Shown: positions 15,023-57,512, counted from the stretch's first letter. The stretch: DNA of 64,000 bases from the human T2T-CHM13v2.0 reference genome, Homo sapiens (GCF_009914755.1 NC_060928.1); one strand, 5' to 3'. Program-made: numbers and translations. Notes: generated by a model from the letters alone, not told the origin.

Positions 15023-17194
15023 TTTGTTTAATTATTTAAATTTTAGGGTACATGTGCACAACGTGCAGGTTTGTCGCATATGTATACATGTGCCATGTTG
15101 GTGTGCTGCACCCATTAACTCATCATTTAATACTAGGTATATCTCCTAATGCTATCCCTACCCCGTCCCCCCACCCCACAACAGGCCCCAGTGTGTGATG
15201 TTCCCCTTCCTGTGTCTGTGTGTTCTCATTGTTCAATTCCCACCTATGAGTGAGAACATGAGGTGTTTGGTTTTTTGTCCTTGTGATAGTTTGCTGAGAA
15301 TGACGGTTTCCAGCTTTATCCAGGTCCCTATAAAGGACATGAATTCGTCCTTTTTATGGCTGCATAGTATTCCATGGTGTATATGTGCCACATTTTCTTA
15401 ATCCAGTCTATCGTTGTTGGATATTTGGGTTGGTTCCAACTCTTTGCTATTATGAATAGTGATGCAATAAACATATGTGTGCATGTGTCTTTATAGCAGC
15501 GTGATTTATAATCCTTTGGGTATATACCCAGTAATGGGATGGCTGGGTCAAATGATATTTCTAGTTCTAGATCCCTGAGGAATCACCACACTGACTTCCA
15601 CAATGGTTGAACTAGTTTACAGTCCCTCCAACAGTGTATAAGTGTTCCTATTTCTCCACATCCTCTCCAGCACCTGTTGTTTCCTGACTTTTTAATGATG
15701 GCCATTCTAACTGGTGTGAGATGGTATCTCATTGTGGTTTTGATTTGCATTTCTCTGATGGCCAGTGATGATGAGCATTTGTTCATGTGTCTGTTGGCTG
15801 CATACATGTCATCTTTTGAGAAGTGTCTCTTCATATCCTTCGCCTGCTTTTTGATGGGGTTGTTTGTTTTTTTCTTGTAAATTTGAGTTCATTGTAGATT
15901 CTGGATAGTAGCCCTTTGTCAGATGAGTAGGTTGCAAAAATTTTCTCCCATTTTGTAGGTTGCCTGTTCACTCTGATGGTAGTTTCTTTTGCTGTGCAGA
16001 AACTCTTTAGTTTAATTAGATCCCATTTGTCAATTTTGGCTTTTGTTGCCATTGCTTTTGGTGTTTTAGACATGAAGTCCTTGCCCGTGCCTATGTCCTG
16101 AATGGTATTGCCTAGGTTTTCTTCTAGGGTTTTTATGGTTTTAGGTCTAACATTTAAGTCTTTAATCCATCTTGAATTAATTTTTGTATAAGGTGTAAGG
16201 AAAAACTCTCAATAAATTAGGTATTGATGGGATGTATCTCAAAATAATAAGAGCTATCTATGACAAACCCACAGCCAATATCATAATGGGCAAAAACTAG
16301 AAGCATTCCCTTTGAAAACTGGCACAAGACAGGGATGCCCTCTCTCACCACTGCTATTCAACATAGTGTTGGAAGTTCTAGCCAGGGCAATCAGGCAGGA
16401 GAAGGAAATAAAGGGTATTCAATTAGGAAAAGAGGAAGTCAAATTGTCCCTGTTTGCAGATGACATGACTGTATATCTAGAAAACCCCATCATCTCAGCC
16501 CAAAATCTCCTTAAGCTGATAAGCAACTTCAGCAAAGTCTCAGGATACAAAATCAATGTGCAAAAATCACAAGCATTCTTATACACAAATAACAGACAAA
16601 CAGCCAAATCATGAGTGAAATCCCATTCACAATTGCTTCAAAGAGAATAAAATACCTAGGAATCCAACTTACAAGGGATGTGAAGGACCTCTTCAAGGAG
16701 AACTACAAACCACTGCTCAATGAAATAAAAAAGGATACAAACAAATGGAAGAACATTCCATGCTCATGGGTAGGAAGAATCAATATCGTGAAAATGGCCA
16801 TACTGCCCAAGGTAATTTATAGATTCAATGCCATCCCCATCAAGCTACCAACGCCTTTCTTCACAGAATTGGAAAAAACTACTTGAAAATTCATATGAAA
16901 CCAAAAAAGAGCCTGCATTTGCCAAGTCAATCCTGAGGCAAAAGAACAAAGCTGCAGGCATCACGCTACCTGACTTCAAACTATACTACAAGGCTACAGT
17001 AACCAAAACAGCATGGTACTGGTACCAAAACAGATATAAAACCAATGGAACAGAACAGAGCCCTCAGAAATAATGCCGCATATCTACAACTATCTGATCT
17101 TTGACAAACCTGACAAAAACAAGAAATGGGGAAAGGATTCCCTATTTAATAAATGGTGCTGGGAAAACTGGCTAGCCATATGTAGAAAGCTGAA
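15023..17194 (-). mobile_element. L1PA, 5'-truncated and 5'-inverted (twin priming); ORF2 RT remnant on + at 16203-17194
   Basis: L1 3' end on minus at 15023-16202. Inverted ORF2 piece contains [13 protein letters not shown] and SLFADDM. Perfect 15-bp TSD AAGTAAAACAGGTTT (15008-15022, 17195-17209). Confidence 0.95.
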
Positions 17195-17734
17195 AAGTAA
17201 AACAGGTTTATCTCACGTTACAGTGGTGATCAATAGACTGAAATTGCTCTCACCTAGACAAAATGAGGCTGTCTACATGGTTGGCTTGTTTTTTTCTAGA
17301 GGACTGTCTGTTTCCTTGACTTCCTTTTCAGCAGCCCACTGGGTTCCTTGACTTCTGGCCCCTTTTTCTGGGCTTCACATGGAGGGATTCCGCCCTCAGC
17401 TTCAGAGCTGGGAGTGCCTCTTGAGATCTGATTCTCATTCTGCTTCTGTCTCCTTCTTCTGCTTAATTTTTTGAATCACCTTTGATGACAAGGGACCCTC
17501 CTGGAGGATCCAGGGTGATCTCTGCACGTTAGCTGATTAGCAACCTCAGTTCTGTCTCCCAAATACCCCCTTGCCATATCAAAAACATGTTCCCAGCATC
17601 TAAGGATTAAGACTTACAAATCTCAGGGGGTCAGTAATCTGCCCATGTTATTGAGTACCTAATTTCAAAGTGTCCTGAGGAAGCCCACAGGAAGATGCTG
17701 AACTGGTGAAAGGGTGGCGAGAATAACCAGTGAA

Positions 17735-17760
17735 GGGGTTGGGGGGGTGGGTGGGGAGGG
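17735..17760 (+). other. Putative G-quadruplex
   Basis: GGGGTTGGGGGGGTGGGTGGGGAGGG: five G-tracts with 1-2 nt loops. Confidence 0.6.
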
Positions 17761-55697: not shown

Positions 55698-56090
55698 TGT
55701 TGCAGAATTTTTTTCCTTAGTTCAGCTAAAACTAGGTTCTTTTTACATGACCAGGAAAATTTAGGCATGCAGACACACTGAAGGGTGAATAGGGCAAGAT
55801 TTTATTGGGTGAAAAAGGAAAAAAAGAAAACTCAGCAAAGCGAGATGGAGTCCTGCTAACAGGTCCCCTGCCCCCACCCCACAGGACACACCACAGGAAC
55901 TGCAGAGGCCAGGCTCCTCCCTCTGCCTGTGGCTCCACCCCAGTCCCCCAGTGCGCATGTGGGCAGGCTCAGACAAGGCCCTGGGCAGGTTCCCTCATCT
56001 GCACAAGAGCATCTGATGTAAACACTTGTGGGGCAGGTCAGAGATTTGCCAGGGACCCCTTAGTATCTACCTAAGCATTTGGTTGTCTCA
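55698..56090 (-). mobile_element. MER61-like ERV1 solo LTR
   Basis: TGTTGCAGAATTTTTTTCCTTAGTTCAGCTAAAAC...GGTTGTCTCA. TSD AGGA / AAGA. Empty sites at ~12505 and ~44005. Confidence 0.8.
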
Positions 56091-56587
56091 AAGACACATG
56101 GGTGTCTGAGCCACAAGTAAAGGGCAAGGAGGTGACCCTGATTCGAAATGCCTGAGGGCTTGACCTTTAACCCTGCTCTGAGAGGCCTTTGGGAACAGGG
56201 TGTCTGAGTGAATGACATGTTAATTTCTTTCCCATTTGTTTACCTTGCTATTTTTTCCATTACGGAGGCAGTAAGAATGTCAGGGATTAGTACAGTGGTT
56301 TTTATCATTCATGTTATAGGCATTCCTATCTCTGAATGCTCTGTGGCTTGGAGATTCTCTGGCCCACACAGCTGCAATTCTGACTCTGTGGTTCATGTTT
56401 CCATAAGATCACCCTTCAGTTTCATCAGATGAGAGCTCTCACAGTGTCTAATTTATGCCTCTGCTGTTGGGGTGAGGAACTTATATCCAGATTGAATTGT
56501 TGATCTTATCCAACATACTAAGGGGATTTTGACATAAACAAGTATTCTCTTCTTGATGTAAAGTTATAACAATAAGATGAATGTTAA

Positions 56588-57512
56588 GGCACCCTACAGA
56601 ATGGGCAAAAATTTTTGCAATCTACTCATCTGACAAAGGGCTAATATCCAGAATCTACAAAGAACTTAAACAAATTTACAAGAAAAAAATCAAACAACCC
56701 CATCAAAAAGTGGGCAAAGGATATCAACAGACACTTCTCAAAAGAAGACATTTACGCAGCCAACAGACACATGAAAAAATGCTCATCACCGCCCATCAGA
56801 GAAATGCAAATCAAAACCACAATGAGATACCATCTCACACCAGTTAGAATGGCCATCATTAAAAAGTCAGGAAACAACAGGTGCTGGAGAGGATGTGGAG
56901 AAATAGGAACACTTATACTCTGTTGGAGGGACTGTAAACTAGTTCAACCATTGTGGAAGTCATTGTGGTGATTCCTCAGGGATCTAGAACTAGAAATACC
57001 ATTTGACCCAGCCATCCCATTACTTGGGTATATACCCAAGGGATTATAAATGATGCTGTTTAAAGACACATGCACACGTATGTTTATTGCAGCACTATTC
57101 ATAATAGCAAAGACTTGGAACCAACCCAAACGTCCAACAACGATAGACTGGATTAAGAAAATGTGGCACATATACACCATGGAATACTATGCAGCCATAA
57201 AAAATGAGTTCATGTCCTTTGTAGGGACATGGATGAAGCTGGAAACCATCATTCTCAGCAAACTATCACAAGGACAAAAAACCAAACACCGCATGTTCTC
57301 ACTCATAGGTGGGAATTGAACAATGACAACACATGGACACAGGAAGGGGAACATCACACATGGAAGCCTTTTGTGGGGTGGGGGGAGGGATAGCATTAGG
57401 AAATATACCTAATGTAAATGACAAGTTAATGGGTGCAGCACACCAACATGGCACAAGTATACATATGTAACCTGCATGTTGTGCACATGTACTCTAGAGC
57501 TTAAAGTATAAT
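56588..57512 (+). mobile_element. L1PA 3' fragment
   Basis: ORF2 C-terminus ([22 protein letters not shown]) plus 3'UTR. 13-bp TSD AGATGAATGTTAA (56575-56587, 57513-57525). Poly(A) essentially absent. Confidence 0.95.

What the first reader, a model, noticed from the sequence alone, without database searches (positions are those of the whole stretch)
15023..57512. Many 2-5 bp microhomology deletions in resident transposons: possible TOP1 transcription-associated germline mutagenesis
Seen, against consensus sequences recalled from memory: one copy of a short repeat or microhomology is lost repeatedly. Examples: ATTTG[TTTG]AG ~15881; CATA[CTGA]ATGGG ~16282; CAG[AGAG]CCAA ~16601; CA[GA]GATAT ~17031; TTCTCA[CTCA]TA ~24447; CTCATC[ATC]AC ~56782; AATGA[TGA]GTT ~57203; THE1 TAAA[GA]CATAC ~46499. 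The same GTAAC[AAAC]CTG deletion arose independently in two L1s (~24637, ~57467). Established: TOP1 cleavage at embedded ribonucleotides gives 2-5 bp deletions (ID4-like) that scale with transcription, including in the germline. Inference: long-term high germline transcription of this array.
Basis: partly seen in the sequence, partly recalled or inferred. Interest (0 to 1): 0.7.

Follow-up and report, generated by a model that had tools for sequence, protein, structure and literature searches.

The report
Short-deletion hotspot in oocyte piRNA cluster
Jumping genes and dead gene copies in this stretch of human chromosome 4, which very likely lies inside a major small-RNA factory of egg cells, have lost 2-5 DNA letters about three times as often as matched copies elsewhere, likely because heavy transcription in eggs is mutagenic, probably through topoisomerase 1.

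Summary
Nine of the ten listed deletions are real against relatives; the one at ~17031 is ambiguous; two sites also recur in controls. The window is a degenerate tandem array between WDR1 and ZNF518B, a leading mammalian oocyte piRNA cluster (PMC10964541). Per non-CpG substitution, 2-5 bp deletions are about three times more frequent than in matched copies elsewhere: 16 observed against 5.5 expected in the window (P 4e-4). Array units compared with each other show the same excess (0.077 against 0.031 gaps per mismatch). Alus and several younger elements show none. Transcription is supported by an A>G strand bias (62 of 107 against 45.5). TOP1 is the likeliest cause but is not singled out: the TN*T motif share equals the background, only 11 of 40 deletions are 2 bp, and longer or homology-free deletions are also raised. 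A regional 4p16 effect is not excluded. I found no report of this excess in ten literature searches. Population indel data could test it directly.

The parts
1..64000 (+). Part of oocyte piRNA cluster piC-ZNF518B-WDR1 (Human-Cluster64, 280 kb, + strand)
   Evidence: ZNF518B lies 60 kb past the window (hub annotation); cluster name and hg38 coordinates from PMC10964541; the hg38-to-T2T offset (~24 kb) is recalled
1041..63244 (+). Ancient head-to-tail array, about five units of 12-16 kb, 64-76% identical, T-rich on + (T-A skew +0.112 outside repeats), enriched for 2-5 bp gaps
15023..17196 (-). L1a: 5'-inverted L1 insertion with 15-bp target-site duplication (15008-15022, 17195-17209); 4-bp deletions at ~15885, ~16285, ~16602
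   Evidence: (sequence)
23884..24692 (+). L1b: older L1 3' end; seven 2-5 bp deletions (~24011, ~24214, ~24360, ~24365, ~24405, ~24448-24454, ~24639) and one of 10 bp (~23948); the 20 controls carry 0-2 each
56593..57512 (+). L1c: L1 3' end; 3-bp losses at ~56782-56793 and ~57204, 4 bp at ~57469, one of 7 bp
46470..46815 (+). THE1-like solo LTR (name recalled); 2-bp loss at ~46501, one alignment-ambiguous 2-bp gap shared by 4 controls, one of 8 bp
   Evidence: copy-by-copy comparison
32700..32991 (-). L1d: short L1 3' end with no 2-5 bp deletion against the older panel (one 2-bp gap against the younger panel)
7853..8421 (-). Two Alu pieces and a 100-bp L1 tail; no 2-5 bp deletion; one 34-bp deletion
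46041..46362 (-). Alu; no 2-5 bp deletion, one of 7 bp
51309..51623 (+). Alu; one 3-bp loss in the A-rich linker
61882..62535 (+). Two Alus; no 2-5 bp deletion

Best explanation
Neutral insertions in this array carry about three times the background load of 2-5 bp deletions per substitution, likely because the locus has long been heavily transcribed in oocytes as a piRNA precursor, with topoisomerase 1 as the probable cutter. Shown here: the excess, its replication outside the window and in the array body, the flat 1-bp deletion rate, microhomology and TN*T above chance, and + strand mutational asymmetry. Taken from print: that the interval is a major oocyte piRNA source, and that TOP1 cleavage at embedded ribonucleotides followed by strand realignment gives 2-5 bp deletions that scale with transcription. 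Inferred: high TOP1 loading along a 280-kb transcript in oocytes; that the deletions arise in the female germline; that they help to diversify the piRNA pool.
For: Window 16 against 5.5; cluster elements outside the window 36 against 9.9; 1-bp deletions 30 against 30.5. RAF1P1 17 in 298 substitutions against GAPDH pseudogenes 19 in 2044 by the same aligner or 22 in 1700. Old L1 9 in 180 against 21 in 1574. DPPA2/4-family pseudogenes 45 in 546 inside against 3 in 251 outside, with only five 2-5 bp insertions inside. Array pairs 312 gaps in 4046 mismatches against 36 in 1152; simulation gives 0.028-0.033 at background and 0.070-0.076 at 3.4-fold. Microhomology 28 of 40 and TN*T 26 of 40 exceed chance; TN*T in 26 of 28 microhomology deletions against 21.1 expected, P 0.017, where controls give 60 against 57.8. 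A>G on + in 62 of 107 against 45.5, P 0.002. Two other oocyte clusters 7 against 2.75, P 0.02. Literature.
Against: TN*T share equals controls (26 of 40 against 60 of 88, Fisher P 0.84). 2-bp deletions are 11 of 40, against 41% of de novo and 82% of RNase H2-null deletions. Unstratified, per 100 substitutions, homology-free deletions (1.70 against 0.22), 6-30 bp deletions (1.56 against 0.58) and 1-bp insertions (1.99 against 0.82) are raised too. The DPPA2/4-family copies have microhomology in only 15 of 45, chance level, and share events through tandem duplication. Younger elements outside the window show 1 against 1.8 and Alus show nothing. A>G asymmetry is weak in RAF1P1 (0.126 against 0.110) and reversed in raw counts for the DPPA2/4-family copies. 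Two flanking pseudogenes give 2-3 in 69 substitutions, compatible with either rate. No expression, TOP1 or parent-of-origin data were available.
Confidence: 0.5

Rival explanations
1. The excess is real and tied to the cluster, but comes from error-prone end-joining of breaks (transcription- or array-induced) in oocytes rather than from TOP1 realignment.
For: Homology-free and 6-30 bp deletions and insertions are raised as well; 3-5 bp deletions outnumber 2-bp ones 29 to 11. piRNA loci are reported hotspots of structural variation (PMC9925758).
Against: 1-bp deletions are flat. 26 of 28 microhomology deletions are at TN*T. Later substitutions erase microhomology in old elements, so 'no homology' is overcounted (inference).
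Confidence: 0.2
2. A regional property of 4p16 (replication timing, chromatin) raises short deletions regardless of piRNA transcription.
For: Flanking pseudogenes 13 kb and 80 kb beyond the estimated cluster end give 2-3 deletions in 69 substitutions, not distinguishable from the cluster rate (P 0.26-0.46).
Against: The same counts also fit background (P 0.11-0.32). Samples from the chr4q and chr12q oocyte clusters give 7 against 2.75, though their T2T positions rest on recalled offsets.
Confidence: 0.12
3. Chance, heterogeneity between elements and alignment or control-selection artefacts produce the signal.
For: The window was chosen for the pattern; the signal rests on a few old elements; Alus and five younger L1 or LTR copies outside the window show no excess; several control panels are top BLAST hits; control rates vary from 0.007 to 0.035 by family.
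Against: Tests are stratified by family. Unselected controls give equal or lower rates (0.018, 0.010, 0.009-0.013). Gaps are strongly deletion-biased. Controls at 19-25% divergence and simulations do not inflate the class.
Confidence: 0.12
4. Selection favoured indels that stop antisense pseudogene piRNAs from silencing their parent genes, or that diversify piRNAs.
For: RAF1P1 and the DPPA2/4-family copies lie antisense to the precursor and show the excess; low phyloP is reported.
Confidence: 0.06

Closest known systems
ID-TOP1 / COSMIC ID4, TOP1 transcription-associated mutagenesis (Reijns 2022, PMC8866115)
   Same: 2-5 bp deletions at short repeats and microhomology, TN*T context, link to transcription, present in the germline.
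   Different: There it was measured in de novo indels of genes against male germ-cell expression ('oocyte' and 'maternal' occur 0 times). Here it is a fixed record in a non-genic oocyte locus, less 2-bp dominated, and accompanied by longer and homology-free deletions.
piC-ZNF518B-WDR1 oocyte piRNA cluster (PMC10964541; PMC8437802)
   Same: Same interval and strand; reported as fast-evolving by phyloP.
   Different: No indel spectrum or mutational cause in the passages read; 'indels' occurs once, about Dicer MT-C.
Structural-variant hotspots at pachytene piRNA loci (PMC9925758)
   Same: A raised local mutation rate proposed as the driver of fast piRNA evolution.
   Different: Variants of 50 bp or more in testis loci; 'indel' and 'topoisomerase' occur 0 times.
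Female-specific transcription-associated mutagenesis (PMC13439702)
   Same: Mutation rate rises with expression in the female but not the male germline.
   Different: Protein-coding genes; 'indel' and 'piRNA' occur 0 times.

Membership tests
ID-TOP1 / ID4 | 2-5 bp deletions raised while 1-bp deletions are not | tested here: met
   52 against 15.4, and 30 against 30.5
ID-TOP1 / ID4 | 2-5 bp deletions the only indel class raised | tested here: inconclusive
   6-30 bp deletions 11 and 1-bp insertions 14 in 704 substitutions against 31 and 44 in 5361; not stratified by family
ID-TOP1 / ID4 | Deletions at short tandem repeats or microhomology | tested here: met
   28 of 40 against chance 0.46, P 0.002; controls 76 of 88; but 15 of 45 in the DPPA2/4-family copies
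ID-TOP1 / ID4 | TN*T motif above repeat-matched expectation | tested here: inconclusive
   26 of 28 against 21.1, P 0.017; overall share equal to controls, P 0.84
ID-TOP1 / ID4 | 2-bp deletions dominate (82% in RNase H2-null cells; 41% de novo) | tested here: not met
   11 of 40; P 7e-14 against 0.82, P 0.055 against 0.41
ID-TOP1 / ID4 | Rate scales with transcription | tested here: inconclusive
   Locus is a top oocyte piRNA source; A>G asymmetry; other clusters 7 against 2.75 and flanks unresolved; no dose-response
ID-TOP1 / ID4 | Dependence on TOP1 and embedded ribonucleotides | not testable with these tools
   Needs TOP1cc or ribonucleotide maps, or a perturbation
Oocyte piRNA cluster piC-ZNF518B-WDR1 | Lies in the WDR1-ZNF518B interval, + strand | tested here: met
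   Hub annotation; Table S6 Cluster64; assembly offset recalled; + strand skew
Oocyte piRNA cluster piC-ZNF518B-WDR1 | piRNAs made from this very window | not testable with these tools
   No read data; interval-level statement in PMC10964541 only
Repeat-subfamily diagnostic indels | Deletion shared by many relatives | tested here: not met
   12 of the 16 window events remain after dropping sites lost in 3 or more controls

The most novel reading that the evidence does not exclude
Oocyte piRNA clusters as a class are self-mutagenising: their transcription in arrested oocytes makes them maternal hotspots of TOP1-type short deletions. This would explain part of their unexplained fast evolution and steadily decouple antisense pseudogene piRNAs from their parent mRNAs.
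Probability: 0.35. Interest if true: 0.82.

Novelty: new variant of a known kind. Interest (0 to 1): 0.66.

Why it matters
Why mammalian piRNA loci evolve faster than their surroundings is described as open (PMC9925758 abstract). A threefold, class-biased deletion excess at a leading oocyte cluster gives a concrete small-scale mutational input. It extends TOP1-type germline mutagenesis from genes and male expression data to a non-genic female-germline locus, and it can be tested now with population and trio indels. It also means that repeat ages and neutral-rate estimates inside such clusters may be biased.

Tried and rejected
Subfamily-feature explanation: rejected for 12 of 16 window events. 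The 2-bp loss at ~17031: not supported over a 1-bp loss. Alus as evidence: no excess in 6 window Alus and 2 further cluster Alus. A solo LTR and four L1 ends outside the window: 1 deletion in 84 substitutions. In one search one L1 piece was entered in the wrong orientation; that row was dropped and redone. The two LTRs of one element downstream (48 mismatches; gaps of 9, 4, 4, 3, 2) were left out of the pooled test for want of a matched control. Three of the four DPPA2/4-family copies were left out of the pooled test as non-independent; the copy kept has the lowest rate (9 in 154). A raised substitution rate: cluster L1s and LTRs mostly look more diverged than controls, but these controls are top hits, and Alus show 6.9% against 7.1%, so no claim is made. 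A strand preference of the T motif: counts follow base composition. Local flank control: too small to decide. Rfam: no match. Two papers could not be read (PMC203328, PMC6961462). Earlier scan findings were not available.

Full report
Where the window is. It is G000:C4:10292001-10356000. Self-comparison shows an old head-to-tail array of about five units of 12-16 kb, 64-76% identical. Outside repeats the + strand is T-rich (T-A skew +0.112, G-C +0.035). It lies between WDR1 and ZNF518B. PMC10964541 names piC-ZNF518B-WDR1 as one of two clusters that give a substantial share of oocyte piRNAs in most mammals, with lower phyloP than its flanks. Its Table S6 lists Human-Cluster64 at hg38 chr4:10,117,120-10,397,432, + strand. 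Placing the window inside it uses a recalled offset of about 24 kb. PMC8437802 calls the hamster locus female-specific. Subfamily labels (L1PA, THE1) and the names DPPA4, DYNLT1 and MX are recalled; Pfam gave DCR (Dppa2/4) for the parent exon.

Method. Each element was aligned with relatives from elsewhere in the genome. For every copy, cluster or control, I counted gaps and non-CpG substitutions against the other control copies. The statistic is 2-5 bp deletions per substitution, which cancels age. LTRs were compared copy by copy. Panels: 29 loci of 40 hits for the younger L1s, 20 of 39 for the older L1, 20 of 39 for the THE1-like LTR, 20 for a second LTR, 14 for an old L1, 20 unselected Alus from flanks, and 20 of about 58 GAPDH pseudogene loci, 18 taken as every third in rank.

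Nine of ten are real; ~17031 is ambiguous. Two sites recur in controls (4 of 29; 3 of 29 and 7 of 20). The 4-bp loss shared by two unrelated L1s is in 0 of 49 controls and 2 of 9 cluster copies.

Excess in the window. L1a 2 in 16 and 1 in 34 substitutions, L1c 3 in 25 (controls 8 in 450 and 15 in 600); L1b 7 in 51 and L1d 0 in 21 (19 in 725); a short L1 tail 0 in 2; LTR 2 in 29 (11 in 318); Alus 1 in 79 (3 in 312). Stratified: 16 against 5.5, P 4e-4; 1-bp deletions 11 against 9.5. L1b has 7 where its 20 controls have 0-2. Dropping recurrent sites gives 12 against 3.55.

Replication outside the window. RAF1P1 against the RAF1 coding exons has 17 deletions of 2-5 bp and 7 of 1 bp in 298 substitutions (25 in 271 with other gap costs). 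GAPDH pseudogenes give 19 and 42 in 2044 by the same aligner (29 in 1964). An old L1 has 9 in 180 against 21 in 1574. Four DPPA2/4-family pseudogenes inside have 45 in 546 against 3 in 251 for three outside, but they share events and are twice as diverged; only the lowest was pooled. Against this, four younger L1 ends, a solo LTR and two Alus give 1 in 107. Pooled: 36 against 9.9 (none of 2,000,000 simulations reached it); transposons only 10 against 4.2, P 0.02; younger transposons only 1 against 1.8; 1-bp deletions 19 against 20.9.

The array itself. Fourteen unit pairs, partly overlapping, show 312 gaps of 2-5 bp and 200 of 1 bp in 4046 mismatches. Old GAPDH pairs at similar divergence show 36 and 43 in 1152. 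Simulation with the control spectrum gives 0.028-0.033 gaps per mismatch and with a 3.4-fold rate 0.070-0.076, against 0.077 observed. These gaps are not polarised.

Cluster or region. 15 kb from the CCNG2-CXCL13 and TBX5-RBM19 clusters (positions from recalled offsets) gave 7 against 2.75, P 0.02. Two pseudogenes beyond the cluster's right edge gave 2-3 in 69, which fits both background (1.1) and cluster rate (3.9). A regional effect stays open.

Transcription. In cluster transposons, A>G on + makes up 62 of 107 A>G/T>C changes against 45.5 expected (P 0.002); C>T shows no bias. RAF1P1 is weakly in the same direction and the DPPA2/4-family copies are reversed in raw counts. PMC13439702 reports that transcription raises mutation rates in the female but not the male germline.

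Is it TOP1? Reijns et al. define the signature by 2-5 bp deletions at repeats or microhomology in a TN*T context. Of 40 cluster events (L1, Alu, RAF1P1), 28 have microhomology and 26 fit TN*T, both above chance. Controls have 76 and 60 of 88, so the excess looks like more of the ordinary genome-wide class, which that paper largely ascribes to TOP1. Among microhomology deletions TN*T is 26 of 28 against 21.1 (P 0.017). A flat 1-bp deletion rate argues against general slippage or mismatch-repair failure (inference). Against a pure signature: lengths are 11, 13, 11 and 5 for 2-5 bp, and homology-free deletions, 6-30 bp deletions and insertions are raised in unstratified counts. I put the real excess at about 0.85, a transcription-linked cause at about 0.7, and TOP1 as main agent at 0.5.

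Novelty. The locus and the mechanism are each known. Ten searches of the open library returned no paper joining them or reporting a short-deletion excess at oocyte piRNA clusters. Subscription papers and preprint supplements were not searchable, and PMC6961462 could not be read. Papers seen: PMC10964541 (passages, section 9, supplementary file 2 parts 1 and 12 and searched rows; other supplements not read); PMC8866115 (abstract, sections 11, 14, 15, 41, 45, passages); PMC13439702 (abstract, passages, discussion); PMC8437802, PMC9925758 and PMC6461890 (passages only); others as search listings only.

Verdict. A real, replicated, roughly threefold excess of 2-5 bp deletions in a major oocyte piRNA cluster, uneven among elements, likely driven by germline transcription, with TOP1 the leading but unproven agent.

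Noticed in passing
G000:C4:10166050-10205700 (L076, L126, L127, L128): Four DPPA2/4-family processed pseudogenes lie antisense to the piRNA precursor and appear amplified by tandem duplication; they could once have yielded piRNAs against an early-embryo gene.
   Followed up: partly
L072:6185-9340 (G000:C4:10268185-10271340): The annotated LOC1004226xx pseudogenes are dynamin-family remnants on the minus strand (Pfam Dynamin_M for 1 of 3 pieces); MX-like by a recalled motif. 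RAF1P1 is antisense too.
   Followed up: partly
window 16204-17196, 23884-24692, 56593-57512: L1 pieces in the sense of the precursor carry 12 deletions in 92 substitutions, while minus-oriented young L1 pieces carry 1 in about 100; the old minus-oriented L1 and RAF1P1 do not fit a strand rule. Post hoc.
   Followed up: partly
window 15008-17209: L1a is a twin-priming-type 5' inversion with a 15-bp target-site duplication.
   Followed up: yes
window 7853-8421: Nested insertion: an Alu piece, a young-looking 100-bp L1 tail and an Alu with a 34-bp internal deletion.
   Followed up: no
L135:1825-4066 (G000:C4:10357825-10360066): A MaLR-type element with both LTRs; they differ by 48 mismatches and five gaps, four of 2-4 bp.
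   Followed up: partly
window 40895-61582: The predicted lncRNA LOC124900667 is annotated on the minus strand, opposite to the reported piRNA strand and the composition skew.
   Followed up: no
L071-L074 (40 kb upstream of the window): No Alu was detected in 40 kb, and young repeats are scarce, which is unusual for human DNA.
   Followed up: no
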